A DNA stretch of 64,000 nucleotides from Candidatus Dormiibacterota bacterium. GTDB taxonomy: Bacteria; Chloroflexota; Dormibacteria; CF-121. The notes under the pieces are model-generated. The model did not search any database, was not told where the DNA came from, and saw only the letters and a list, made by a program, of their open reading frames with translations. The stretch covers positions 5,311 through 69,310 of the forward strand of contig DASYVR010000002.1 in NCBI GenBank assembly GCA_035936995.1. Reading direction: 5' to 3'. Shown in pieces: positions 3,711 through 44,688 of the stretch (positions are counted from its first letter, which is position 1; each line of letters starts with the position of its first letter). A program made the position numbers and the translations under genes.

Positions 3711-6266
3711 ATGCACCCGGGGAACAATCTGACGCGGGATGAAGCCCGCCAGCGGGCCGACTTGATTCACACCCCGCTGTACGACATTTCGCTCGATCTC
3801 ACGAGGGATACTGACACCTTCAGCTGCGAAGCCACCATTCACTTCCTTTGCCAAGAGCCTGGCGCCAACACCTTTATCGATTTCCTGGCGCCCTCGGTCG
3901 ACAGCTGCGAGCTCAACGGCGAGGAAGTCCCCAAAGAGGCCTTCAACGGTGCCCGCATCACGCTCGAGAACCTGCGTGAGGCGAACGAGCTCCATGTCCT
4001 CGGCACCTGCTACTACCAAAACGTCGGCGCGGGACTCTGCAAGTTCAAAGACCCGGTCGACCACAAGACCTACCTGCACAGCCAGTTCGAGACCTTCGAC
4101 GCCCACCGGATGTATCCCTGCTTCGACCAGCCCGACCTGAAGGCGAGCTTCACCTTCACGGTGCTGGCCCCCAACGACTGGGTGGTCGTCTCCAACAACC
4201 CCGGCCAGGCCCAGCCGGTCGCGGGCAAGGAGAACATCAAGCGCTGGACCTTTGGGGCCACCCCCAAGATGTCGTCGTACCTGACCGCGATCGTCGCCGG
4301 TCCCTACCATGGCGTCCGCGACCGGCACGGCGACGTCGACCTTGGCATCTTTTGCCGCCAGTCGCTGGCCCAATACCTCGACCCCGAGGAGATCTTCACC
4401 GTCACCAAGCAGGGCCTCGACTTTTACGGCCAGGCCTACAAGTACCCCTATCCCTTCCAGAAGTACGACCAGCTCTTCGTCCCCGAGTTCAGCGCCGGCG
4501 CGATGGAAAACATCGGATGCGTCACGTTCAACGAATTCATGCTCTTTCGCTCGAAGGTGACGGAGGCCGTCCGCGAGGATCGCGCGAATGCCATCCTGCA
4601 CGAGATGGCGCATATGTGGTTCGGCGACCTGGTGACGATGCGCTGGTGGGACGACCTCTGGCTGAACGAGAGCTTCGCGACCTTCATGTCGGTGCTCTGT
4701 CAGGTGGAGGCGACGCGCTTCAAAAATGGTTGGGTGACGTTCGCCAACCAGTACAAGGCGGGCGCCCGCCGCCAGGACCAGCTACCGACGACCCACCCCA
4801 TCGCCGCGGACGTGCCGGACATCCAGTCCGTCTACTTGAATTTCGACGCGATCACCTACAACAAGGGCGCGTGCGTCCTCCGGCAGCTGGTTGCCTACGT
4901 CGGACAGGACACGTTCCTCCGCGGCGTCCAGCGCTACGTCAAGCAGCGGCAGTACGCGAACGCCACGCTCGCGGATTTCCTGTCGGATGTCGAAGCGGGC
5001 TCTGGTCGCGATTTGCAGGCCTGGTCCAAGCTCTGGTTGGAGACCGCCGGCCTTAACACGCTGCGGCCGGACGCCACCGCGCAGAGCGACGTCATCGGCT
5101 CCCTCACCATCAAGCAGGAGGCGCCTCCCGAACACCCGACGATCCGTCCACACCGGCTCGCGGTTGGGCTCTACGACCGCCAGTCCGACTCGCTCCAGCT
5201 GCGCCGGCGAGTGGAGCTGGACGTCGCCGACGCGAACACCCCGGTCACCGATCTCATCGGCGAACGCCTGCCTGACCTGCTGCTCGTCAATGATCTCGAC
5301 CTGACCTACGCAAAGATCCGCCTGGACGAGCGCTCGCTGGCTACGGCCACCCAGCATCTCGCGGAGCTCTCCGACCCATTGGCGCGGGCGATCACCTGGG
5401 CCGCGCTCTGGGACATGTTGCGCGATGCCGAGATTCCGGCGCGGCGCTACCTGCCGCTGATCCTCAAGAACATCCGGGGCGAAACCGACATCGGCGTCGT
5501 CCAGGACCTCCTCGCGCAAGCCTCCTCGGCCGTGTGGGTCTACGGCGATCCGATGAATGTCGATTCGGCGGTGAAGATCCTGGCCGATCACGCGCTTCGG
5601 GCGCTCGACGCCGCCCCGGCCGGTAGCGACCTGCAGCTCGCCTGGGCTCACGCCTTCATCAACGCGGCCCGTTCTTCGGAGCACCTGTCGATCCTTCGCG
5701 GCTTGCTGGACGGCATCAAGGTCTTCACCGGTCTCAAGGTCGACACCGACCTGCGCTGGGCGATCGTCAATGCACTGGCCGGCCTCGGCGCCGATGATGG
5801 CCTGATCGATGCCGAGTTGAAACGCGACCCCACCGACGAGGGCCAGCGTTACGCCGCCGCAGCCCGCGCCGCGCGCCCGACGCCCGACGCCAAGGAACAG
5901 GTTTGGGCGTCGCTGATGGAGGACCTCACCATGCCGCTGGCCACGATGCGGTCGATGATGCGGGGGTTTCACCGCTTCGATCAACGACGCGTGCTCGAGG
6001 CCTACAGCGCTCGATACTTCCAGGCGCTGGCGAACGTCTGGAAAGAGCGTGAAATCGAGGTCGCCCTCGCCTTCATCCGCATGATGTACCCCTCGGTCGT
6101 GGTCGGCGACGAGACGGTGAAAGCCACCGACCAGTATCTCGCCGCGGACAGCGTGCCAGGGCCGGTACGACGAATTCTGCTCGAAGGCAAGGACAACATG
6201 CTTCGGACCATGCGCGGGCGAGCCGCCGACGCCGCGGCCGCCGAAAAGGTCTCTGCCGAACGCTAG
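3711..6266 (+). CDS. pepN: Aminopeptidase N (M1 family)
   Basis: HEMAHMWFGDLVTMRWW...LNESFA (HEXXH...E) zinc motif, GAMEN-like AGAMEN motif, 851 aa. Confidence 0.9.
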   Translation: MHPGNNLTRDEARQRADLIHTPLYDISLDLTRDTDTFSCEATIHFLCQEPGANTFIDFLAPSVDSCELNGEEVPKEAFNGARITLENLREANELHVLGTCYYQNVGAGLCKFKDPVDHKTYLHSQFETFDAHRMYPCFDQPDLKASFTFTVLAPNDWVVVSNNPGQAQPVAGKENIKRWTFGATPKMSSYLTAIVAGPYHGVRDRHGDVDLGIFCRQSLAQYLDPEEIFTVTKQGLDFYGQAYKYPYPFQKYDQLFVPEFSAGAMENIGCVTFNEFMLFRSKVTEAVREDRANAILHEMAHMWFGDLVTMRWWDDLWLNESFATFMSVLCQVEATRFKNGWVTFANQYKAGARRQDQLPTTHPIAADVPDIQSVYLNFDAITYNKGACVLRQLVAYVGQDTFLRGVQRYVKQRQYANATLADFLSDVEAGSGRDLQAWSKLWLETAGLNTLRPDATAQSDVIGSLTIKQEAPPEHPTIRPHRLAVGLYDRQSDSLQLRRRVELDVADANTPVTDLIGERLPDLLLVNDLDLTYAKIRLDERSLATATQHLAELSDPLARAITWAALWDMLRDAEIPARRYLPLILKNIRGETDIGVVQDLLAQASSAVWVYGDPMNVDSAVKILADHALRALDAAPAGSDLQLAWAHAFINAARSSEHLSILRGLLDGIKVFTGLKVDTDLRWAIVNALAGLGADDGLIDAELKRDPTDEGQRYAAAARAARPTPDAKEQVWASLMEDLTMPLATMRSMMRGFHRFDQRRVLEAYSARYFQALANVWKEREIEVALAFIRMMYPSVVVGDETVKATDQYLAADSVPGPVRRILLEGKDNMLRTMRGRAADAAAAEKVSAER

Positions 6267-8756: not shown

Positions 8757-8827
8757 CCTTTCCCTCCCCCTCTAGACGAGGGCACGACTCGTTTCCCTCC
8801 CCCTCTGGGGGAGGGCAGGGTGGGGGC
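8757..8827 (+). repeat. Two adjacent G/C-rich hairpin repeat copies (first degenerate) downstream of ackA
   Basis: tttccctccccctctagacgagggca... then tttccctccccctctgggggagggcagggtgggggcg. Confidence 0.9.
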
Positions 8828-12463: not shown

Positions 12464-12877
12464 TTGGTCTCAGCCGTGATCCCTCTCGCGATTCACTGCG
12501 GACCAATCGGTGGCGGCTTCGGTTGTGACATGGGCTCCCTGCCGGCGCCGCCTATTGCCCTCACATGGATTCTCTATGGCATCGCGCTTGCTGGCCTGGG
12601 ACTGGGGCTTCATGCGCTTTTCACCGGGCGGCTCGCCGTCAGGTTTGGAAGGCTAAGGGAGATTTCGAACGCCCGAGCCGCTCGCCTTGTAGGGCTGAGC
12701 TTGCTACTGGATTCACTCGTCTCGATCGAGATCGCCCGTGAGTTTGAGGTCTTGAGCAACCACGTCGAGCCGCCTCATTGGACCGGGCTCTTGCTGTTTG
12801 CTTCGTTCATCGTCGCCACGCTTCTACAGTGGCTCGCCTTCCGAATCGATCGGCGTTCCGAGCCTGCTCCCCAATAG
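12464..12877 (+). CDS. Hypothetical membrane protein
   Basis: 137 aa ORF with 3-4 hydrophobic helices. Confidence 0.4.
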   Translation: MVSAVIPLAIHCGPIGGGFGCDMGSLPAPPIALTWILYGIALAGLGLGLHALFTGRLAVRFGRLREISNARAARLVGLSLLLDSLVSIEIAREFEVLSNHVEPPHWTGLLLFASFIVATLLQWLAFRIDRRSEPAPQ

Positions 12878-12895: not shown

Positions 12896-12964
12896 ATGAC
12901 CGCCGCCGACCGGGCGCTCTACCAGGCCAAAGCCGGCGGCCATAACCGCGTCGCCGCCGCCTGA
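12896..12964 (+). pseudogene. Relic of a GGDEF (diguanylate cyclase) C-terminus
   Basis: 22-codon ORF MTAADRALYQAKAGGHNRVAAA matches the conserved GGDEF C-terminal A-D-x-A-L-Y-x-A-K-x-x-G-R/H-N-R-V block; no upstream domain present. Confidence 0.4.
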
Positions 12965-13059
12965 ACGCCGCCTCACCCGCGCCAACCTCTGGCGGCGTCT
13001 GAAGGAGTGGACGGCAAGAAAGCCGCCAGATCCAACGGACTCATAGGAGGCAAACCGTT

Positions 13060-13782
13060 ATGTCCTCGATTACCCTACCGTACGCCCGATTGACACTCGG
13101 CCTGGCGCTGGCCGCGGGGGCCATCACCCTGACGGGCGCCCTGCAGGCGTCTGCCGATACCCTGGGCGCGTTCACCTGCACCGATAAGTCCGGAGGCGTC
13201 GCCGGCGCGGCCGGGACGGTGTACGACGTCAGGGTCGCGCACCACGATGGCTATGACCGGCTTGTTATCGGGTTTCCCACCGCCAACACCATGCCGCAAT
13301 ACCAGCTGACGCAGCAGGCGACGGCACACTTCGTCCGCGACGCGAGCGGCCAGCCCGTCACCCTCAACGGCTCGGCCGGTCTCCGGGTTGTACTTCGGAA
13401 CACCGATATCGTCAACGGTGCTCCGAGCGACCTCAAGCCCAGCCTGCCTGCGATCCGTGAAGTGACACGGATCGGCGACTTCGAGCGGGTCGTCAGCTAC
13501 GGCGTCGGTCTCGCGACGCCCGCCTGCTTCCGCGTTCTCGAGCTCAGCGGGCCAACTCGCCTGGTAATCGACGTCCAAACTCCGGCGGCCGCTCCGGCCG
13601 CGACCGCTGCGCCGTCAACGGCCGCTAGCCAGCCCGCGACCCCATCCGATCTCGCCGCGACCGGCCACCCGGCCCAGCCTGCGCAACCCGTGAACTTCCC
13701 GGTCACTGCCCTGATCCTGGGGCTGCTCGCCGTGACGGCGGGGCTTACCATCGCCGGCCTCCGGCGATTCGCGAGGAAATGA
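13060..13782 (+). CDS. Cell-wall-anchored surface protein (LAATG sorting signal) carrying one copy of an uncharacterised ~130 aa domain
   Basis: Signal peptide; C-terminus has P/A-rich linker, LAATG, hydrophobic helix, RRFARK tail (class-E sortase LAXTG-type signal); domain shares TCTDKSGG, HDGYDRLV, GDFERVVSYG, RVLELSGPTRLVIDVQTP blocks with the anti-sigma factor. Confidence 0.6.
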   Translation: MSSITLPYARLTLGLALAAGAITLTGALQASADTLGAFTCTDKSGGVAGAAGTVYDVRVAHHDGYDRLVIGFPTANTMPQYQLTQQATAHFVRDASGQPVTLNGSAGLRVVLRNTDIVNGAPSDLKPSLPAIREVTRIGDFERVVSYGVGLATPACFRVLELSGPTRLVIDVQTPAAAPAATAAPSTAASQPATPSDLAATGHPAQPAQPVNFPVTALILGLLAVTAGLTIAGLRRFARK

Positions 13783-13796
13783 CCCTCTTTCGGCCA

Positions 13797-13848
13797 ATCC
13801 CCTCCCCACGATTTCCCTCCCCCTCACGAGGAGGGCAGGGTGGGGGCC
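13797..13848 (+). repeat. G/C-rich hairpin repeat copy
   Basis: cccctccccacgatttccctccccctcacgaggagggcagggtgggggcc. Confidence 0.85.
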
Positions 13849-13891
13849 TTCGTCACCCGTCCACGGCACCCGGAGCGTCGATAGGATTGGC

Positions 13892-14428
13892 ATGCTTATG
13901 GACCCGACGTTCGGGCGCGTCATCGAGCGGTGGCGCGCCGGCGATCGCGACGCCTTCGAAGAGGTCATGGATCGCTACGGCCTGCAGCTGCTCCGAACCG
14001 CCCGCTTGATTCTTCGCGACGAGGCGTTGGCCGAGGACGCCATCCAGGAAACGTTTCTCAAGGCCTGGCAGCGGATCGGCAGTTTGCACGACGAAGATCC
14101 CGGACCCTGGCTCACCAGAATCGCAATGAATGAAAGCATCTCGGCGTACCGGCGACGGCACCGCTTCCAGGCGCTGACCGAGCGGTTTGGCCGCTTGGGT
14201 GGCGCCAAGCGCGAGGTCTCCAGCGAGGCGCGCCTGGACCTGGCACACGCGCTCGACCAGCTGACCGCCGAGCAGCGCGCTGCGGTCGCCCTTCACTACT
14301 ACCAGGACTTGAGCGTTGACGAGACAGCGCGGGCACTGAGGGTCCCGGTGGACACCATCAAGTCGCGGTTGAAGACCGCGCTCCGCCGGCTTCGCGAGCT
14401 GACCGGAAGCGAGGAGGCGTTCGCATGA
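13892..14428 (+). CDS. ECF (sigma-70 family) RNA polymerase sigma factor
   Basis: Sigma-70 region 2 (FEEVMDRYGLQLLRTA...) and region 4 (LTAEQRAAVALHYYQDLSVDETA) signatures, 178 aa. Confidence 0.85.
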   Translation: MLMDPTFGRVIERWRAGDRDAFEEVMDRYGLQLLRTARLILRDEALAEDAIQETFLKAWQRIGSLHDEDPGPWLTRIAMNESISAYRRRHRFQALTERFGRLGGAKREVSSEARLDLAHALDQLTAEQRAAVALHYYQDLSVDETARALRVPVDTIKSRLKTALRRLRELTGSEEAFA

Positions 14429-15609
14429 GCGACGACTTCGAGAAGAACCTGCGCGACCACCTCCACAGCGAAGCGGAGGAAACGCGGGAGTTTCCGCGCC
14501 GGCTCCGCGGCCGCATCCGGGATGGCATCGCGCCTCGGTCGCGCGCCCGCATGGCGCCGCAGCTGGCGCTGGCCGGCGCGCTGGTGCTGGTCGCGGTCGC
14601 CGTGCTGGCGTTTCGCAACCCAACGATCATCAACGTGGTCACCACCAACATCAACAAAATCTTCCCGAGCCCGTCGCCGACACCGCAACCATTCACCTGT
14701 ACCGACCGGTCGGGAGGATCCGCAGGCCTTTCCGCCCAGTTGACCTCGATTCGAACGGCTCCCCACGACGGATACGATCGCGTCGTTTTCGAATTCGGCG
14801 GCGCCGGGATTCCGTCCTACGATCTCACCCGGCAAGATTCGGCAACGTTCACCCGTGATGCCAGCGGGCAAAACGTTACGCTCGACGGCGCTGCGGGTCT
14901 CAAGCTGGTCTTTCGCGATGCGGACGTTGCCTCCGGCGTCAGCACTGATCTGAAGCTACCGCTAATGGGTCTCCGGGAGATCGCCCAAATCGGTAGTCTC
15001 GAGCGGGTGCTGAGCTACGGCATTGGCATCTCGTCGTCCCAGTGCGTTCGGGTTCTTGAGCTCAGTGGACCATCCCGCCTCGTTGTCGACGTCGCGACCA
15101 CCGCCTCCGCATCAACGACGGCCGCCCCAACGCCACTGCCGACCACCCCCGCGGCCACGGACCTCGGGTCGTTTACCTGCCAGGACCGAAGCGGCGGAAC
15201 GAGCGGCAGCCCGGCCATGCAGTTGACTGACGTACGAGTCGCCCATCAACCCGGCTATGACCGGATCGTCTTCGAGTTCGCGCCGCTGGCTGGCGCATCA
15301 CCGCGGGTTCCTGCCTACACCCTGTCGCGCCAGGCGTCGGCCCATTTCGTCAAGGATCCAAGCGGGCAACCGATCACGATGCGCGGCAGCTACGGCCTAC
15401 GCGTCGTCTTCCAGCAAGCAACCGGCGCGAGCACCTACAACAAGAGCCGCGATCTCACCCCGAACCTTCCCGTCGTGCAAGAGGTCGAACAACTCGGCGA
15501 CTTCGAAGCCGTATTGAGCTGGGGCGCTGGCCTCTCGCGGCAGTCCTGCATACGCACGCTGGAGTTGAGTAACCCGACCCGCCTTGTCATCGACGTCCAG
15601 ACCCCCTGA
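14425..15609 (+). CDS. Anti-sigma factor: cytoplasmic N-terminus, one TM helix, two tandem copies of the same extracytoplasmic domain as the 13060 protein
   Basis: ATGA start/stop overlap with the sigma factor; TM at ~aa 45-65; duplicated FTCTDRSGG...DGYDRVVFEF...RVLELSGPSRLVVDV and FTCQDRSGG...GYDRIVFEF...RTLELSNPTRLVIDVQTP. Confidence 0.65.
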   Translation: MSDDFEKNLRDHLHSEAEETREFPRRLRGRIRDGIAPRSRARMAPQLALAGALVLVAVAVLAFRNPTIINVVTTNINKIFPSPSPTPQPFTCTDRSGGSAGLSAQLTSIRTAPHDGYDRVVFEFGGAGIPSYDLTRQDSATFTRDASGQNVTLDGAAGLKLVFRDADVASGVSTDLKLPLMGLREIAQIGSLERVLSYGIGISSSQCVRVLELSGPSRLVVDVATTASASTTAAPTPLPTTPAATDLGSFTCQDRSGGTSGSPAMQLTDVRVAHQPGYDRIVFEFAPLAGASPRVPAYTLSRQASAHFVKDPSGQPITMRGSYGLRVVFQQATGASTYNKSRDLTPNLPVVQEVEQLGDFEAVLSWGAGLSRQSCIRTLELSNPTRLVIDVQTP

Positions 15610-17831: not shown

Positions 17832-18686
17832 TTGAATCGGCCCCGACGCCCTCCAGTGCCCTCGGCGGTGGTTTTCACGATTAATGCGATCGCGATCTCC
17901 TGGCTATGCTGGCTCCCGCTGGTCGCGACCAACCACGGCATCGGGAATGTCCCGCCCTCGCTGGTCCCGCTGCTGGTCCTGCTGGGCACCTTCGGCCCCT
18001 TCCTCAGCGCGGTGACCATCGTCGCTCGTCGGTCGGGGTTCCGCGGCCTGGGGCAGTTTATCGGCCAGGCTTTTCGCTGGCGGGTTGGCATCCAGTGGTA
18101 TGCCGCCGCACTCGTCGCGCCCGCCGCGATCCGGATTGCGGTTCTCTACGTGCACGTTTTGAAAGGCGGCACATTCCCCGACCTGTCGGATACGACGCGC
18201 TGGCTCGCCATCCCCTCGACCTTCCTCCTGGTGCTGCTCATCGGCGGACCGACGGGTGAGGAATTTGGCTGGCGCGGATTTCTCCTCCAGCGCATGCAGC
18301 CGGTCACGGGGGTGCTGGGGGCGTCGATCCTGATCGGGGTGATCACGGCTTTCTGGCATCTGCCGCTGTTTTGGATCCCGAGCACGGCCCAGAGCCATCT
18401 GCCCTTCGCCATCTTCGCGGTGCGCACGGTGGCGCTCTCGATCATTTCGACCTGGCTGTACAACGGCACCCGGAGGAGCCTGCTGTTCGTCCTCCTCTTC
18501 CACGCCTCGCTGAACACCTGGCCGAATACCATGTACATCCTCGAAGCGGAGGGAACGATCGGCCCTTACCTCAGCACCACCATCATCTACTCAGGGTGGG
18601 CTCTCCAGCTGTTCATCCTGGGTCTCCTCCGTGGCCGAGGCGACCGCCGCCAACCGGCGGACGCGACCCCGGCCGTCGCCGCCTGA
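17832..18686 (+). CDS. CPBP family intramembrane glutamic endopeptidase (CAAX protease-like)
   Basis: EEFGWRGFL (EExxxR) and FWH/HASLN motifs, multi-TM. Confidence 0.75.
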   Translation: MNRPRRPPVPSAVVFTINAIAISWLCWLPLVATNHGIGNVPPSLVPLLVLLGTFGPFLSAVTIVARRSGFRGLGQFIGQAFRWRVGIQWYAAALVAPAAIRIAVLYVHVLKGGTFPDLSDTTRWLAIPSTFLLVLLIGGPTGEEFGWRGFLLQRMQPVTGVLGASILIGVITAFWHLPLFWIPSTAQSHLPFAIFAVRTVALSIISTWLYNGTRRSLLFVLLFHASLNTWPNTMYILEAEGTIGPYLSTTIIYSGWALQLFILGLLRGRGDRRQPADATPAVAA

Positions 18687-18701
18687 CCCTCAACCGCGCG
18701 A

Positions 18702-20018
18702 GTGATGGCCTCACTCGAGCGATGGATTCGCCGCCGGAGGAAGGTGGTTACCCTTGTAGCCATGGAAACGCGCCCACGCGCGTGGGGCTGGATCGGGCGG
18801 CTGCAGCCGCGCACGTTCGATCGGCTGCTGGTTGGCGTTCTCCTTTTGCTCGGGCTGATCAACACACTCCTCGATCTGCGATTCGCGGATCGAGGGCTGC
18901 GTCTCCCCTCCGGTGCTCCAGCCGGCACCGCCATCCTTATCTTTGTCGGCCTTGCCCTATTGCTGCTGCAAGTCGTTCCGCTGCTCTGGCGACGCAGCCA
19001 TCCGAGCTTCGTCCTCCTGCTGGTCGCCGGCGCCTTCGGCGCCAGGGTCTTGTTGGGTTTCAATCCGGGGATCGCCGGGTTCGGGCTCCTGGTCGCGATG
19101 TACAGCGTCGCCGCCTACGAGGTGGGGGTTCGACGGGTGTTTTTTCTGGTCGTCGCCGGCCTGGGTTTCGTGGCGGGCTTTGTCGCCTTCGTCATCACTG
19201 GCAACCCCCGGTCGTTCGCCATCACTGTCCCAAGTGTGTTCTTCGTTGCCGCCTGGCTGATTGGTGATTACCTTCGGACCCGGCGCGCCTACGTCGCCCA
19301 GCTGGAGGAACGGGCAGCCCGGCTCGAGCGTGAGCGGGACCAGGACCGACAGCTCGCGGCCGACGAGGAGCGGTCACGGATTGCGCGCGAGCTGCACGAC
19401 GTGGTCGCCCACGATGTCAGCGTGATCGCGATCCAGGCCGGCGCGGCGCGAGCGGTGCAGGCCACCAGGCCCGAGGCAGCGGCGCAGGCCCTCGGCCTGA
19501 TCGAAACGACAGCGCGGGAGACCCTCATCGAGTTGAATCGGCTGCTCGGGGTGCTGCGCGGAAGCAATGGCGCCTCTCCCGATCGCAGCCCGCAGCCCGG
19601 GATCGGGCAACTGGCCGGTCTCGTCGAGGAACTGCGCGCCGCCGGGCTCGAGGTCGACGCGCGGGTTGACGGCGAACCGCGGTCACTTCCGCCGGCGCTC
19701 GACCTGTCCGCCTACCGGATCGTGCAGGAGGCGACGACCAACGTCCTCAAACACGCCGGCGCCCGACGCGTTGACATCCGGGTGCACTACACGGAGACGA
19801 TGCTCGCACTCGATGTCCGCGATGACGGCGCCGGCGACGGTAGCGACTCGGCCTCGTCGTCGGGACATGGGCTGATCGGGATGCGTGAGCGGGTCGCCGT
19901 CTTCGGCGGCGAGCTACGGGCGGGGCGCGATCCCGCCGGCGGATTCTCGGTGCACGCGCGTCTCCCCATCGACAGCACTCACTCCCCCCTTCGGGGGGAG
20001 GGTCGGGGTGGGGGGTGA
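18702..20018 (+). CDS. Sensor histidine kinase, HisKA_3 (DesK/LiaS) type, multi-TM N-terminus
   Basis: RIARELHDVVAHDVSVIAIQAGAA H-box, HATPase_c G-boxes; the last ~12 codons are derived from a G-rich repeat copy. Confidence 0.8.
   Translation: MMASLERWIRRRRKVVTLVAMETRPRAWGWIGRLQPRTFDRLLVGVLLLLGLINTLLDLRFADRGLRLPSGAPAGTAILIFVGLALLLLQVVPLLWRRSHPSFVLLLVAGAFGARVLLGFNPGIAGFGLLVAMYSVAAYEVGVRRVFFLVVAGLGFVAGFVAFVITGNPRSFAITVPSVFFVAAWLIGDYLRTRRAYVAQLEERAARLERERDQDRQLAADEERSRIARELHDVVAHDVSVIAIQAGAARAVQATRPEAAAQALGLIETTARETLIELNRLLGVLRGSNGASPDRSPQPGIGQLAGLVEELRAAGLEVDARVDGEPRSLPPALDLSAYRIVQEATTNVLKHAGARRVDIRVHYTETMLALDVRDDGAGDGSDSASSSGHGLIGMRERVAVFGGELRAGRDPAGGFSVHARLPIDSTHSPLRGEGRGGG
19982..20016 (+). 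repeat. G/C-rich hairpin repeat copy overlapping the 3' end of the kinase gene
   Basis: actccccccttcggggggagggtcggggtggggggtga. Confidence 0.85.
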
Positions 20019-20674
20019 TCCGAGTCCTGATCGTGGATGACCAGGCGCTGGTGCGGGCCGGCTTTCGCATGATCCTTGAGGCCCAGCCCGATCTCGAGGT
20101 CGTCGGGGAGGCCGGGGATGGATCAGCGGCGATCGATGCCGTCCGCACCCTTCGGCCCGATGTCGTGCTGATGGACGTTCGGATGCCCGGTGTCGATGGC
20201 ATCGAGGCGACTCGCCGGCTGACCGAAGCCGGCGTGCCGAGCAAGATCGTGATCCTGACGACCTACGACCTGGACGAATACGTCTTCGACGCGCTGGCCG
20301 CTGGCGCGAGCGGCTTCCTGCTCAAGCACGTCCCGCCGGAGGAGCTGGTCCATGGCGTGCGGGTAGCGGCCGCTGGCGATGCCTTGGTGGCGCCGTCGAT
20401 CACGAAGCGCCTGATCGAGGAGTTTGCGAAGCAGCGGGCGCCCGTCCGCGCTTCCGGCACCGACCTCAACACCCTGACCGACCGCGAGCAAGAGGTAATG
20501 CGGCTGCTGGGCCGCGGCCTCTCGAACCCCGAGATCGCGCGCGAGCTGAAGGTCGGGGAAGCCACGGTCAAGACCCACGTCGCCCACGTGCTCGACAAGC
20601 TGGGGCTCCGCGACCGCGTCCAGGCGGTGATCTTCGCCTACGAGGTCGGTCTGATCAAGCCCGGCGCTGCCTAG
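20015..20674 (+). CDS. Response regulator, NarL/LuxR family
   Basis: REC domain with D-D-K residues plus C-terminal LuxR HTH (TDREQEVMRLLGRGLSNPEIARELKVGEATVKTH). Confidence 0.9.
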   Translation: MIRVLIVDDQALVRAGFRMILEAQPDLEVVGEAGDGSAAIDAVRTLRPDVVLMDVRMPGVDGIEATRRLTEAGVPSKIVILTTYDLDEYVFDALAAGASGFLLKHVPPEELVHGVRVAAAGDALVAPSITKRLIEEFAKQRAPVRASGTDLNTLTDREQEVMRLLGRGLSNPEIARELKVGEATVKTHVAHVLDKLGLRDRVQAVIFAYEVGLIKPGAA

Positions 20675-20680
20675 AAGAAC

Positions 20681-20709
20681 TCGCTCCCCCTTGCGAGGGA
20701 GAAGGGGCC
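20681..20709 (+). repeat. Degenerate G/C-rich hairpin repeat
   Basis: ctcgctcccccttgcgagggagaaggggcc. Confidence 0.5.
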
Positions 20710-20819
20710 TGCCGCCTCCTCCATTAAGGGGAGCCAAAGATCGTGCGCGCAGATGACGACATCTCGACGCCATGGCCCTACTGTCAATGGCAGACATCGT
20801 TTCCTAAAGGAGATAGTTA

Positions 20820-21725
20820 ATGGCATCAAGCGAAAACGTCATCACGACCCACAAGCTGACCAAGCGATACGGCGCGTCGATCATGGCGGTCGACAGCCTC
20901 GACCTCGAGGTGCGGCGCGGCGAGGTCTTCGGATTCCTGGGCCCGAACGGAGCCGGGAAGACAACCACCCTGCGCATGTTGCTGGGCCTCATTCGGCCGA
21001 CATCCGGATCCGCCACCGTAGCCGAGCATCGACCGGGCGACCCCGAGGGTCTGCGCCAGATCGGCTCGCTCGTCGAGTCCCCGGCGTTTTATCCCTATCT
21101 TTCGGGTCGCGAGAATCTCAAGATCATGTCGGACTACGCCGGGGTTCCGCACACGCGCGTTGATGCGGCGCTCGAGGAAGTCGACCTGGCGGACCGCGCG
21201 AAGGATCGCTTCGGCACCTACTCGATGGGGATGAAGCAGCGCCTTGCCGTGGCGGCGGCGTTGATCAAGGACCCGGAGCTCATGATCCTCGATGAGCCGA
21301 CCAACGGCCTCGACCCGCAGGGGGTCGTCGAGATGCGCTCCCTGATCCGCCGGTTGGGCACCGGCAATCGGACCGTCATGCTCTCGAGCCACCTGCTCAA
21401 CGAGGTCCAGCAGATCAGCGACCGCGTCGCAATCATCCGCAAGGGCAAGCTCGTCGCGCAGGGCACCGTCCACGAGTTGCGCGGCGAGTCGGCGATCGTG
21501 GTTCGGGTGAAACCGGTCGATGCGGCTCGGCGGCAGCTGGATCGCATGCTCGGCGCGGCGGCCGTGACCGCCGTCGACGGCACGCTGCGGCTCTCGGTGG
21601 ACCCCGACCGGGCCGCCGACATCAATGACGCGCTGGTTGGCGCCGGGATCAAGGTCAGCGAGTTGCGCGCGGTCGAACGAACCCTCGAGGAAGTCTTCCT
21701 CACCCTGACAGGAGAAGCAGCATGA
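20820..21725 (+). CDS. ABC transporter ATP-binding protein
   Basis: Walker A GPNGAGKTT, signature LSGGMKQRL-like YSMGMKQRL, Walker B ILDEPT. Confidence 0.9.
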   Translation: MASSENVITTHKLTKRYGASIMAVDSLDLEVRRGEVFGFLGPNGAGKTTTLRMLLGLIRPTSGSATVAEHRPGDPEGLRQIGSLVESPAFYPYLSGRENLKIMSDYAGVPHTRVDAALEEVDLADRAKDRFGTYSMGMKQRLAVAAALIKDPELMILDEPTNGLDPQGVVEMRSLIRRLGTGNRTVMLSSHLLNEVQQISDRVAIIRKGKLVAQGTVHELRGESAIVVRVKPVDAARRQLDRMLGAAAVTAVDGTLRLSVDPDRAADINDALVGAGIKVSELRAVERTLEEVFLTLTGEAA

Positions 21726-22567
21726 TCAACAGTTTCAAAGCGGAATGGCGCAAATTGCGGCAACGACCGGCGGTCTGGGTGCTCGGCGGCATCATGCTCG
21801 CCGCACTCTTCCTCTTCGGATACGCGTTCAACTGGATACAGCTATCGTTTCCGTCGAAGACCTTTCACAGCGATGCGGGACTCACGATCGCCCAGCTGAA
21901 GACGGCGCTCTACCCCATCAACTTCGTCAAGAATTCTCTGGAGGGCGTCGGCATTGTCGGCAGCATCCTCACCCTGATTCTGGGCGCGCTCGCTGTCGGT
22001 AGCGAGTTTGGCTGGGGCACCGTCAAGACGGTCTACACGCAGCGGCCCGGGCGGCTGCAGGCGCTGGCCGGGCAGGTGGGCGTCGTCAGCGTGATCGCCG
22101 CCATCTTTACGGTCGCGTTCTATGCGGTGGCGGCGCTGGCCAGCCTGGGCATTGCCCTTGGGGACGGTGCGACCATCACCTGGCCGGCCGCGATCGACAT
22201 CATCAAGGCGCTGGGCGCGACCTGGCTCATCTTCGAGTCCTGGAGCCTCTTCGGCATGGCGTTGGCCTACCTCTTTCGGCAGTCCGCAATGGCAATCGGC
22301 ATCGGGCTGGCGTATGTGCTCGCGATCGAGGGCATCCTGTTCCGGCTGCTCGGTGGCTTCGACGCCGGCTGGGTGACGACCATCGAGAAGTTCTTCCTCG
22401 GTCAGAACGCGGGGGCGCTGATCAAGTCGTTCGGCCAACCCTTCGCGAGCCCTGGAGCCGCGGCACCGATTGTGACGGCTGGCGTCGCGGTGCTGGTGCT
22501 TGTCGTCTACTCCCTCGTCTTCGCCGGCGTGACATCGCTTGTCGTGCGGACTCGCGACGTCACCTAG
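21722..22567 (+). CDS. ABC-2 type transporter permease
   Basis: 6 TM helices, start overlaps the ATPase stop. Confidence 0.7.
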   Translation: MINSFKAEWRKLRQRPAVWVLGGIMLAALFLFGYAFNWIQLSFPSKTFHSDAGLTIAQLKTALYPINFVKNSLEGVGIVGSILTLILGALAVGSEFGWGTVKTVYTQRPGRLQALAGQVGVVSVIAAIFTVAFYAVAALASLGIALGDGATITWPAAIDIIKALGATWLIFESWSLFGMALAYLFRQSAMAIGIGLAYVLAIEGILFRLLGGFDAGWVTTIEKFFLGQNAGALIKSFGQPFASPGAAAPIVTAGVAVLVLVVYSLVFAGVTSLVVRTRDVT

Positions 22568-27084: not shown

Positions 27085-27123
27085 TTCCCTCCCGCCTTGC
27101 AGGGGAGGGTCGCGGTGGGGGGT
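27085..27123 (+). repeat. G/C-rich hairpin repeat copy
   Basis: attccctcccgccttgcaggggagggtcgcggtggggggtg. Confidence 0.85.
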
Positions 27124-39417: not shown

Positions 39418-39453
39418 TTCCCTCCCGCTGTGGGGGAGGGCAGGGTGGGGGCT
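39418..39453 (+). repeat. G/C-rich hairpin repeat copy
   Basis: gttccctcccgctgtgggggagggcagggtgggggc. Confidence 0.9.
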
Positions 39454-44650: not shown

Positions 44651-44688
44651 TCCCTCCCCCCTTGCTGGGGAGGGTCAGCGTGGGGGGT
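44649..44688 (+). repeat. G/C-rich hairpin repeat copy overlapping the aminotransferase 3' end
   Basis: gtttccctccccccttgctggggagggtcagcgtggggggt. Confidence 0.85.

What the first reader, a model, noticed from the sequence alone, without database searches (positions are those of the whole stretch)
13060..15609. ECF sigma / anti-sigma pair whose duplicated sensor domain is shared with an adjacent LAXTG-anchored surface protein
The anti-sigma factor (14425-15609) carries two tandem copies of a ~130-aa extracytoplasmic domain with blocks TCTDRSGG, DGYDR(V/I)VFEF, GDFE(R/A)V(L/V)S(Y/W)G and R(V/T)LELS(G/N)P(S/T)RLV(V/I)DV. The gene immediately upstream of the sigma factor (13060-13782) is a secreted protein consisting of one copy of the same domain plus a LAATG + hydrophobic + RRFARK sortase-type anchor. 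That gives three paralogous copies of a domain I cannot place in a known family, wrapped around an ECF sigma. It suggests a cell-surface signalling module in which the wall-anchored paralog interacts with, mimics, or competes for the ligand of the anti-sigma sensor.
Basis: partly seen in the sequence, partly recalled or inferred. Interest (0 to 1): 0.55.

Follow-up and report, generated by a model that had tools for sequence, protein, structure and literature searches.

The report
ECF sigma module with AMIN-like sensors
An uncultured soil bacterium (Candidatus Dormibacterota) carries a conserved three-gene envelope-signalling cassette in which a sigma factor, its membrane partner and a surface-tethered protein all share one probable cell-wall-binding domain, and the surface protein appears to be switched on by that same sigma factor.

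Summary
Window 13060-15609 encodes three genes:
- a 240-aa secreted protein with one domain copy and a C-terminal LAATG + hydrophobic + RRFARK signal;
- a 178-aa ECF sigma factor;
- a translationally coupled 394-aa single-pass membrane protein with two more copies of the domain.

The copies are 53-56% identical to each other. The domain is not unplaceable. It is Pfam PF24837 "AMIN-like", which has no literature. Its AF2 model (pLDDT 94.5) matches the peptidoglycan-binding AMIN domain of E. coli AmiC best.

The cassette is conserved in at least 14 Dormibacterota genomes or contigs.

- A promoter-like motif, TCACCC-N17-CGTC, sits upstream of both the surface-protein gene and the sigma gene in nearly all of these loci. 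This points to autoregulation and to the paralogue being a regulon member.
- Membrane proteins with the same short N-terminal motif + TM + AMIN-like architecture follow an ECF sigma gene in 32 of 32 testable metagenomic cases. Lipoprotein versions do so in 0 of 31.
- In sister clades the extra paralogue recurs upstream of sigma with a lipobox or an N-terminal TM anchor instead of LAxTG.

Three things are not shown: anti-sigma binding, sortase anchoring (no sortase was found in the sequence available) and the ligand.

Verdict: a real, new variant of ECF signalling, of moderate interest.

The parts
12973..12999 (+). ECF-type promoter-like motif TCACCC-N17-CGTC upstream of the surface-protein gene
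   Evidence: Exact match. TCACCC and GCGTCT are invariant in 14/14 aligned orthologous upstream regions while the spacer and flanks vary, even where the upstream gene differs. It is present at the equivalent place in L001-L015, L025 and L107.
13000..13059 (+). Predicted 5' UTR of the surface-protein gene: small hairpin (GACGGC 13010-13015 / GCCGCC 13022-13027) and conserved GGACTCATAGGAGG with Shine-Dalgarno GGAGG at 13046-13050
   Evidence: Alignment of 14 loci; sequence. The function of the hairpin is unknown.
13060..13782 (+). Gene S: secreted single-domain AMIN-like protein (240 aa) with a C-terminal LAATG sorting-type signal
   Evidence: ORF. PF24837 E 3.8e-26, residues 53-173. 100% identical to NCBI MAG protein VGR77_00130, Candidatus Dormibacteraeota.
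13060..13155 (+). Sec-type signal peptide of S (aa 1-32, ...ALQASA|DT)
   Evidence: Read from the sequence: basic n-region (R10), hydrophobic core, A-S-A cleavage motif. Hydropathy of the homologues.
13165..13584 (+). AMIN-like domain of S (aa 36-175)
   Evidence: hmmsearch with the family profile. AF2 model pLDDT 94.5, all-beta. Best PDB fold match is the AmiC AMIN domain, 4bin.
13651..13665 (+). LAATG pentapeptide (aa 198-202)
   Evidence: At this fixed position, 120 orthologues show LAATG 85, LASTG 12, LAVTG 6, LATTG 4, LPATG 4, LALTG 2 and LAGTG 1; the exceptions are LAATS 5 and LAAPG 1. LAxTG is also kept in divergent (<50% identical) clusters P0249, P0250, P0252, P0253, P0265 and P0270.
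13696..13779 (+). Hydrophobic segment (FPVTALILGLLAVTAGLTIAGL) plus basic tail RRFARK
   Evidence: The tail is RRFARK in 85 and RRFAKK in 15 of 120 orthologues.
13820..13850 (+). Degenerate copy of a GC-rich palindromic (REP-like) element between gene S and the sigma promoter; possibly a terminator or insulator
   Evidence: Present or absent as an indel among orthologous loci. Full copies occur elsewhere in the window.
13853..13879 (+). Second copy of the TCACCC-N17-CGTC promoter-like motif, directly upstream of the sigma gene; CGTC ends 12 nt before the ATG and there is no Shine-Dalgarno, so the mRNA would be almost leaderless
   Evidence: Three loci have TGACCC overlapping the stop codon of gene S.
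13892..14428 (+). ECF (group 4) sigma-70 factor, 178 aa
   Evidence: Sigma70_r2 + Sigma70_r4_2. TIGR02937 sigma70-ECF 82.3 bits, above its 42.9 cut-off; best subfamily is SigE-fam_strep, below cut-off. Nearest solved relatives are M. tuberculosis SigL, SigE/SigH and B. subtilis SigW.
14425..15609 (+). Gene A: putative transmembrane anti-sigma factor with two AMIN-like ectodomains (394 aa)
   Evidence: 4-nt ATGA overlap with sigma. PF24837 E 3.3e-48, two stretches. This architecture is always found next to ECF sigma genes.
14425..14559 (+). Cytoplasmic N-terminal segment of A (aa 1-45) with the conserved pattern LRxxLxxEAxxxxxFPxxLRxRIRxxI followed by basic residues; candidate sigma-binding region
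   Evidence: Alignment of 33 diverse homologues. No Pfam or PDB anti-sigma match. AF2 gives helix 4-16 at low confidence.
14560..14616 (+). Single transmembrane helix of A (about aa 46-64)
   Evidence: Hydropathy in homologues. AF2 helix 47-64.
14686..15099 (+). AMIN-like domain D1 of A (aa 88-225)
15166..15606 (+). AMIN-like domain D2 of A (aa 248-394)

Best explanation
This is an autoregulated ECF sigma/anti-sigma envelope-signalling cassette, typical of Candidatus Dormibacterota. The proposed working has five steps.

1. The 394-aa protein A sits in the membrane, N-terminus in. Its conserved ~40-aa cytoplasmic segment holds the ECF sigma inactive. This is inferred from context, not shown.

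2. Outside the membrane, A carries two AMIN-like beta-sandwich domains, each with a conserved Cys pair, on Pro/Thr/Ala-rich linkers. By analogy with the AMIN domain of AmiC and PilQ they bind peptidoglycan or another wall polymer and report its state. The fold similarity is shown; the ligand is inferred.

3. A change at the wall releases sigma, probably by regulated proteolysis of A. This step is inferred.

4. Free sigma transcribes from TCACCC-N17-CGTC promoters. One lies in front of its own near-leaderless sigma-A operon, giving a positive loop. The other lies in front of gene S. The motifs and their conservation are shown; recognition by this sigma is inferred.

5. S is exported by a Sec signal peptide. 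It is then tethered at the surface, most likely joined covalently to peptidoglycan by a class-E-type sortase acting on LAATG. The motif is shown; the enzyme was not found. As a free-standing copy of the sensor domain, S either occupies the same wall sites or binds the ectodomain of A, and so feeds back on signalling. This last point is speculative.
For: Anatomy:
- ECF sigma domains are present.
- The sigma stop overlaps the A start.
- A has one TM helix with basic residues on the N-terminal side.
- There are three PF24837 copies.
- The domain AF2 model has pLDDT 94.5. Its best PDB match is AmiC 4bin (probability 1.00, TM 0.51), followed by PilQ AMIN domains.
- The family profile weakly hits PilQ (E 0.0012). 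Relatives P0355 and P0256 pass the classical AMIN Pfam threshold.

Conservation:
- The S-sigma-A block is found in L001-L014, L025 and L107.
- Each of S, D1 and D2 forms its own orthologue class: 72-80% identity within a class against 49-56% between classes.

Association:
- Proteins with the N-motif + TM + AMIN-like architecture follow an ECF sigma in 32/32 contigs with room, and in 4/4 sampled loci. Lipoprotein AMIN-like proteins do so in 0/31.

Regulation:
- The N17 motif occurs exactly twice in the 64-kb window, at the two expected places. The looser N16-18 pattern gives 4 hits against 0.78 expected.
- It is invariant at both places across loci.
- It is also upstream of an unlinked LAQTG paralogue in L026.
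- Sister clades with a different sigma carry a different motif, TGCAAC-N16-GCATC. It lies upstream of sigma, or of the tethered accessory gene when one is present.

Sorting signal:
- LAxTG/LPxTG is conserved at a fixed position in 114/120 orthologues and in divergent clusters, while the linker varies.
- LAXTG is the class E sortase signal (PMC5148588).
Against: - The cytoplasmic segment of A has no detectable similarity to class I, II or III anti-sigma domains. It is short, and AF2 models it with pLDDT below 50.
- No sortase signature (TLxTC) was found in the 64-kb window or in the fetched Dormibacterota loci that were scanned, and the Pfam-annotated flanking loci list no sortase.
- The Gram_pos_anchor and TIGR01167 HMMs do not hit S.
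- The spacer between LAATG and the hydrophobic segment is 10-11 residues, longer than in classical signals.
- The window copies score below the Pfam threshold for classical AMIN (12.2 and 19.1 bits against 20.5), and the fold match is modest (TM 0.51). Peptidoglycan binding is therefore an extrapolation.
- No expression or transcription-start data exist for this uncultured lineage.
Confidence: 0.6

Rival explanations
1. Protein A is not an anti-sigma factor. It is only an envelope protein co-transcribed with, and under the control of, the sigma factor, as S is. Sigma activity would then be controlled some other way, for example by transcription alone or by an unlinked regulator.
For: No anti-sigma domain is detectable in A. 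The cytoplasmic part is only ~40 aa. The N-terminus of the AF2 model has low confidence.
Against: Adjacency to ECF sigma is strict at 32/32, against 0/31 for lipoprotein forms of the same domain. Start and stop overlap in the window and other loci. The cytoplasmic motif is conserved across clades that are under 30% identical there. Two-helix class II anti-sigma domains are similarly short (PMC6101532).
Confidence: 0.12
2. S is not processed by a sortase. Its C-terminal hydrophobic segment is simply a membrane anchor, so S is a membrane-tethered rather than wall-linked accessory protein.
For: No sortase was found in any sequence available. The LPXTG-anchor HMMs are silent. In sister clades the equivalent accessory protein is membrane-tethered by a lipobox or an N-terminal TM helix, so membrane proximity may be what matters. 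Class E sortases are described for Actinobacteria (PMC5148588), not for this phylum.
Against: LAxTG is held at a fixed position in 114/120 orthologues and in clusters that have otherwise diverged below 50% identity, next to a variable linker. The full tripartite signal (motif, ~22 hydrophobic residues, RRFARK) is present. A plain anchor would not need the pentapeptide.
Confidence: 0.2
3. The AMIN-like domains do not sense peptidoglycan. They act as homotypic protein-protein modules, or bind another polymer such as a secondary wall polysaccharide or an S-layer. The cassette would then be a developmental or surface-assembly circuit, like sigma-BldN/RsbN driving LAXTG-anchored chaplins, rather than a wall-damage response.
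For: The fold match to AMIN is only moderate, and classical AMIN scores are below threshold. The family combines with GerMN, BNR and CarboxypepD_reg modules. A precedent exists for an ECF sigma controlling sortase-E substrates (PMC6101532, PMC5148588). The sigma/anti-sigma pairs are expanded in tandem, which suggests diversified inputs.
Against: There is nothing direct. The only characterised relatives of the fold are peptidoglycan-binding/localisation domains (PMC2572700; Rocaboy 2013 as cited in PMC10268282).
Confidence: 0.3

Closest known systems
Classical ECF sigma / single-pass anti-sigma pairs (E. coli sigmaE-RseA-RseB, B. subtilis sigmaW-RsiW, M. tuberculosis SigK-RskA, SigL-RslA)
   Same: A two-domain sigma (sigma2 + sigma4). 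A co-transcribed N-in single-pass membrane partner with an extracytoplasmic sensor. An autoregulatory promoter with a CGTC-type -10. In RseB, an extra extracytoplasmic accessory protein encoded in the operon.
   Different: The cytoplasmic segment is ~40 aa with no class I/ZAS signature. The sensor is a tandem AMIN-like domain not reported for any anti-sigma. The accessory protein is a paralogue of the sensor domain itself. The -35 is TCACCC rather than the common GGAAC-type.
Clostridium thermocellum sigmaI/RsgI system (and B. subtilis RsgI)
   Same: The anti-sigma ectodomain is a binding module of the same kind as modules found in the surface-displayed proteins that the sigma factor controls (PMC10328401, PMC6852018). 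B. subtilis RsgI reports on peptidoglycan meshwork defects (PMC9732909). Multiple paralogous sigma/anti-sigma pairs occur per genome.
   Different: The sigma family differs (sigmaI, not ECF), as does the anti-sigma N-domain. The modules are CBM/PA14 or an IDR, not AMIN-like. The target paralogue is not encoded immediately upstream of sigma.
Streptomyces sigma-BldN / RsbN controlling chaplins anchored by class E sortases
   Same: An ECF sigma with a single-pass anti-sigma that had no recognisable anti-sigma domain before its structure was solved (class III). The regulon includes LAXTG-anchored surface proteins (PMC6101532, PMC5148588).
   Different: RsbN has a 117-aa cytoplasmic region and an unrelated ectodomain. 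Chaplins are not paralogues of the sensor. The BldN-family HMM is only a weak match to this sigma (E 1e-16, far below cut-off).
AMIN domain (PF11741) of AmiC/AmiB amidases and PilQ secretins
   Same: The beta-sandwich fold is the best PDB match (4bin, 3jc8, 4aqz). Weak sequence signals exist. The location is extracytoplasmic, and tandem copies are common.
   Different: It falls in a separate Pfam family (PF24837). It is ~140 aa with a conserved Cys pair. It is found here in a lineage whose relatives in the Chloroflexota/Terrabacteria grouping are described as monoderm (PMC10608941), attached to an anti-sigma-like protein, lipoproteins and sortase-type substrates rather than to amidases or secretins. 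No binding data exist.

Membership tests
ECF (group 4) sigma-70 factors | Only the sigma2 and sigma4 domains; size about 170-200 aa | tested here: met
   Sigma70_r2 E 3.8e-14 and Sigma70_r4_2 E 5e-13; 178 aa. TIGR02937 scores 82.3 bits against a 42.9 cut-off.
ECF (group 4) sigma-70 factors | Autoregulatory promoter with conserved -35 and CGTC-type -10 at 16-18 nt spacing | tested here: met
   TCACCC-N17-CGTC at 13853-13879, conserved across loci. The motif changes with the sigma clade. This is in-silico evidence only.
ECF (group 4) sigma-70 factors | Assignment to a named ECF subgroup | tested here: not met
   The best NCBIfam subfamily, SigE-fam_strep, scores 117.8 bits against a cut-off of 141.55, and all equivalog models are far below cut-off.
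Transmembrane anti-sigma factors | Encoded next to and co-transcribed with the sigma gene | tested here: met
   ATGA overlap. 32/32 and 4/4 adjacency in relatives.
Transmembrane anti-sigma factors | Single-pass topology, N-terminus in and sensor out | tested here: met
   One hydrophobic helix at about 46-64, preceded by PRSRAR. The ectodomains carry conserved Cys pairs.
Transmembrane anti-sigma factors | Recognisable anti-sigma domain (class I/ZAS, class II, class III) | tested here: not met
   No Pfam hit in residues 1-85. A profile of 33 N-termini finds no anti-sigma chain in the PDB. The size is compatible with a class II two-helix clamp, but this is untested.
Transmembrane anti-sigma factors | Physical binding and inhibition of the cognate sigma | not testable with these tools
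It needs two-hybrid, pull-down or AF-multimer work.
Pfam PF24837 AMIN-like | HMM score above the gathering threshold | tested here: met
   92.1 bits (S) and 163.4 bits (A, two stretches) against 27.
AMIN domain PF11741 (peptidoglycan-binding/localisation) | HMM score above the gathering threshold | tested here: not met
   12.2 and 19.1 bits against 20.5 for the window proteins. Relatives P0355 (43.9) and P0256 (30.5) do pass.
AMIN domain PF11741 (peptidoglycan-binding/localisation) | AMIN fold | tested here: inconclusive
AMIN domain PF11741 (peptidoglycan-binding/localisation) | Binds peptidoglycan | not testable with these tools
   Needs a sacculus pull-down.
Sortase (class E) substrates | N-terminal signal peptide | tested here: met
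   aa 1-32 with an ASA|D site, read from the sequence.
Sortase (class E) substrates | LAXTG pentapeptide followed by a hydrophobic stretch and a basic tail at the C-terminus | tested here: met
   LAATG-10 aa-22 hydrophobic-RRFARK. Conserved in 114/120 orthologues and in divergent clusters.
Sortase (class E) substrates | Match to curated cell-wall-anchor HMMs (PF00746, TIGR01167) | tested here: not met
   No hit at E <= 1.
Sortase (class E) substrates | Cognate sortase encoded in the genome | tested here: inconclusive
   No TLxTC-type ORF in the window or the fetched Dormibacterota loci, and no Sortase Pfam in the annotated flanks. The rest of the genome could not be searched.

The most novel reading that the evidence does not exclude
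S and A form a homotypic "wall-to-membrane ruler". The tethered free copy of the sensor domain (S) docks onto the AMIN-like ectodomains of the anti-sigma protein, so signalling reports whether wall and membrane are still physically coupled. S is linked to the wall through LAxTG here, and is lipid- or TM-anchored in sister clades. Loss of the S-A contact exposes A to proteolysis, and the sigma factor then re-makes S, closing a negative feedback loop. If so, this would be a new sensing principle for ECF systems, a paralogous decoy/co-receptor encoded under the system's own promoter. It would also extend class-E-type sortase anchoring to the phylum Dormibacterota.
Probability: 0.2. Interest if true: 0.7.

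Novelty: new variant of a known kind. Interest (0 to 1): 0.5.

Why it matters
Dormibacterota are abundant, uncultured soil bacteria whose cell envelope and signalling are essentially unknown.

This cassette gives a defined and apparently phylum-typical ECF family, expanded into tandem pairs. It comes with a predicted promoter, a predicted sensor fold and a predicted first regulon member.

It assigns a first functional context, envelope signalling, to Pfam PF24837. That family has about 3,200 clusters at 50% identity and no literature.

A sensor-domain paralogue recurs under the system's own promoter with three different tethers. This is a design feature not described for ECF systems, and it can be tested with recombinant proteins.

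It also suggests that LAxTG/sortase-type anchoring exists outside Actinobacteria.

Tried and rejected
Searches that gave nothing useful:
- The three proteins against NCBIfam gave nothing for S or A.
- A profile of the N-terminal segment against the PDB returned only TM-helix noise and no anti-sigma factor.
- A literature search found no paper for 'AMIN-like domain' or PF24837, and none linking AMIN domains with anti-sigma factors.

I redid it with the three window copies.

Sortase hunt:
- A regex for TLxTC over all six frames of the window and the fetched loci gave no hits.
- I extended the view beyond the window end. One search returned an ABC transporter locus and one search found nothing on record.

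Results with little added value:
- The full-length AF2 model of A gave little beyond domain boundaries, with the N-terminus at pLDDT below 50.

Hits and readings rejected:
- The extra motif hits at 4712-4737 (minus strand, N16, inside a peptidase M1 gene) and 13124-13151 (N18, inside the S signal-peptide coding region) were judged to be chance.
- I considered and dropped the idea that the downstream Rce1-like/CPBP protease and the HisKA_3/LuxR pair (17832-20674) belong to the module. They are syntenic only in close relatives and are separated from it by unrelated genes.


Full report
**1. What is in the sequence**

The window is 65% G+C. It comes from a Candidatus Dormibacteraeota metagenome-assembled genome: the 240-aa protein is 100% identical to NCBI protein VGR77_00130 on an 86-kb contig.

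Three same-strand ORFs occupy 13060-15609.

- Gene S (13060-13782, 240 aa) has five parts: a Sec-type signal peptide (aa 1-32, ...QASA|DT), one ~140-aa domain, an Ala/Pro/Thr/Ser linker, LAATG (aa 198-202), and then 10 residues, a 22-residue hydrophobic stretch and RRFARK.
- The second gene (13892-14428, 178 aa) has Sigma70_r2 and Sigma70_r4_2 only. It passes the ECF superfamily model TIGR02937 but no subgroup model; the best is SigE-fam_strep, at 117.8 bits against 141.55. Its nearest solved relatives are mycobacterial SigL/SigE/SigH and SigW.
- Gene A (14425-15609, 394 aa) overlaps the sigma stop codon (ATGA). It consists of a ~45-aa N-terminal segment, one TM helix and two further copies of the domain.

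The three copies align over their whole length at 53-56% identity, with two conserved cysteines.

**2. The domain**

It is Pfam PF24837 'AMIN-like': 92.1 and 163.4 bits against a cut-off of 27. A profile of the three copies finds 3,175 cluster representatives at 50% identity with E <= 1e-3. No paper in the library mentions the family.

An AF2 model of the S domain, built from a 33-sequence alignment, is very confident (pLDDT 94.5, pTM 0.89, all beta). Its best PDB match is E. coli AmiC (4bin: probability 1.00, TM 0.51, E 3.5e-3), followed by PilQ AMIN domains (3jc8, 4aqz).

Sequence signals point the same way:
- a sub-threshold PF11741 AMIN hit in A (19.1 bits against 20.5);
- PilQ as the top PDB hit of the family profile (E 0.0012);
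- relatives P0355 and P0256, which pass the AMIN threshold.

AMIN domains were proposed to localise periplasmic proteins (PMC2572700). The AmiC AMIN domain is described as a peptidoglycan-binding domain (Rocaboy 2013, cited in PMC10268282). The domain is therefore a divergent AMIN-superfamily module. Wall binding is a reasonable inference, not a result.

**3. Architectures in the family**

Among the 150 best representatives three architectures dominate.

- (a) A ~40-aa cytoplasmic segment with a shared pattern (LRxxLRxxFExxT-P.P-LxxRIRxxL), then a TM helix, then one or two AMIN-like domains.
- (b) Lipoproteins with one domain.
- (c) A signal peptide, one domain and LAxTG + hydrophobic + basic tail.

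Other combinations include GerMN, BNR and CarboxypepD_reg. Every type (a) hit that carries an organism name is Dormibacteraeota, and all are annotated 'hypothetical protein'.

**4. Is A an anti-sigma factor?**

No known anti-sigma domain is detectable, and AF2 is unsure about the N-terminus. The context, however, is strict.

In 80 metagenomic loci retrieved with a type (a) alignment, every type (a) gene with room on its contig has an ECF sigma gene immediately upstream (32/32). None of 31 lipoprotein-type genes has one. Four loci sampled independently give the same answer.

Together with translational coupling, N-in topology and a cytoplasmic motif conserved between clades, I rate the anti-sigma role as likely. 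It may be a short two-helix clamp like class II, whose classes are summarised in PMC6101532. It is still unproven.

**5. Conservation of the three-gene block**

S-sigma-A occurs in the same order in L001-L014 (species-level genome representatives and metagenome contigs), with S-domain identity down to 65%. It also occurs in the more divergent L025 and in L107.

Within-class identities (S 78%, D1 72%, D2 80%) exceed between-class identities (49-56%). The triplication is therefore older than these species, and each copy is kept separately.

**6. Regulation (new)**

Alignment of 14 orthologous upstream regions shows TCACCC and GCGTCT invariant, 17 nt apart, about 60 nt before the S start codon. 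This holds even where the upstream gene differs.

The same TCACCC-N17-CGTC lies directly before the sigma gene. In three loci it is TGACCC, overlapping the S stop codon.

- In the window the N17 form occurs exactly twice, at 12973-12999 and 13853-13879. The looser N16-18 pattern has 4 hits against 0.78 expected.
- Across the loci it is found at exactly these two places.
- The sigma copy ends 12 nt before the ATG with no Shine-Dalgarno, so the transcript would be nearly leaderless. S has a GGAGG.
- An unlinked LAQTG paralogue (L026) also carries the motif.
- Sister clades with a different sigma carry a different motif, TGCAAC-N16-GCATC(A/T)AAC, before sigma.

This co-variation is what is expected of autoregulated ECF promoters. 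It makes S a predicted regulon member.

**7. The accessory paralogue is a recurrent design**

In sister clades an extra single-domain AMIN-like gene again precedes sigma, and it carries the clade's promoter motif. The tether differs, however: a lipobox in L030, and an N-terminal TM anchor in L058 and L090. A tethered free copy of the sensor domain is therefore a repeated feature of these modules.

**8. Sorting signal**

At the fixed position 39-43 residues from the C-terminus, 114 of 120 S orthologues have LA[ASVTLG]TG or LPATG. The exceptions are LAATS (5) and LAAPG (1). The tail is RRFARK or RRFAKK in 100 of the 120.

Divergent clusters keep LAxTG while the rest differs. LAXTG is the class E sortase signal in Actinobacteria (PMC5148588).

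Against this:
- the anchor HMMs do not hit;
- the spacer before the hydrophobic stretch is long;
- no sortase is present in any sequence I could reach.

The rest of the genome could not be searched.

**9. Verdict**

This is a real, conserved ECF signalling cassette with a sensor domain not previously linked to anti-sigma factors, and with a co-regulated, tethered paralogue of that sensor. It is a new variant of a known kind.

- Shown: gene structures, domain family and fold, conservation, sigma adjacency statistics, promoter motifs and sorting-motif conservation.
- Inferred: sigma sequestration by A, the peptidoglycan ligand, sortase anchoring, and feedback by S.

Noticed in passing
window 8796-8826, 27088-27121, 39421-39451, 44653-44686 (+); degenerate copy 13820-13850: A GC-rich palindromic intergenic repeat, CCTCCC(N4-14)GGGAGGG(N)GGTGGGGG. 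It has 4 exact-pattern copies against 0.01 expected. The same element is present or absent as an indel between gene S and the sigma promoter in orthologous loci, sometimes followed by a T-run. It looks like a REP-like or terminator element of Dormibacterota.
   Followed up: partly
window 12896-12964 (+) and 12464-12877 (+): A 22-codon remnant (MTAADRALYQAKAGGHNRVAAA*) of the C-terminus of a GGDEF diguanylate cyclase gene. That gene is intact at this position in L001, L002 and most other loci. In the window, and in L009/L012, its body is replaced by a small membrane-protein ORF. The S promoter motif starts right after the remnant's stop codon.
   Followed up: partly
window 13000-13059 (+): The predicted 5' UTR of gene S contains a small hairpin (GACGGC-N6/7-GCCG(C/T)C, a perfect palindrome in L002, L006 and L010) and an almost invariant GGACTCATAGGAGG box. 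It may be a regulatory RNA element.
   Followed up: no
L044, L045, L046, L049, L050, L053, L055, L073: Two consecutive ECF sigma / AMIN-like anti-sigma-like gene pairs in tandem. This indicates paralogous expansion of the module within Dormibacterota genomes.
   Followed up: partly
L013 3115-4103; L011 3573-4520: In L013 the sigma and anti-sigma-like reading frames are fused into one ORF. In L011 the S orthologue runs on for 315 aa without a sorting signal and overlaps sigma. Both are probably frameshifts or assembly errors, but natural variants are not excluded.
   Followed up: no
window 17832-22567 (+): Downstream cluster: an Rce1-like/CPBP intramembrane protease, a HisKA_3 histidine kinase, a LuxR-type response regulator and an ABC transporter. 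It is syntenic in L001 and partly in L002. No link to the sigma cassette was found.
   Followed up: partly
L036-L043, L047, L052, L058, L090, L101: The clade-2 promoter-like motif TGCAAC-N16-GCATC(A/T)AAC lies only 2-16 nt from the annotated start codons. This implies leaderless or near-leaderless mRNAs for these sigma or accessory genes as well.
   Followed up: partly
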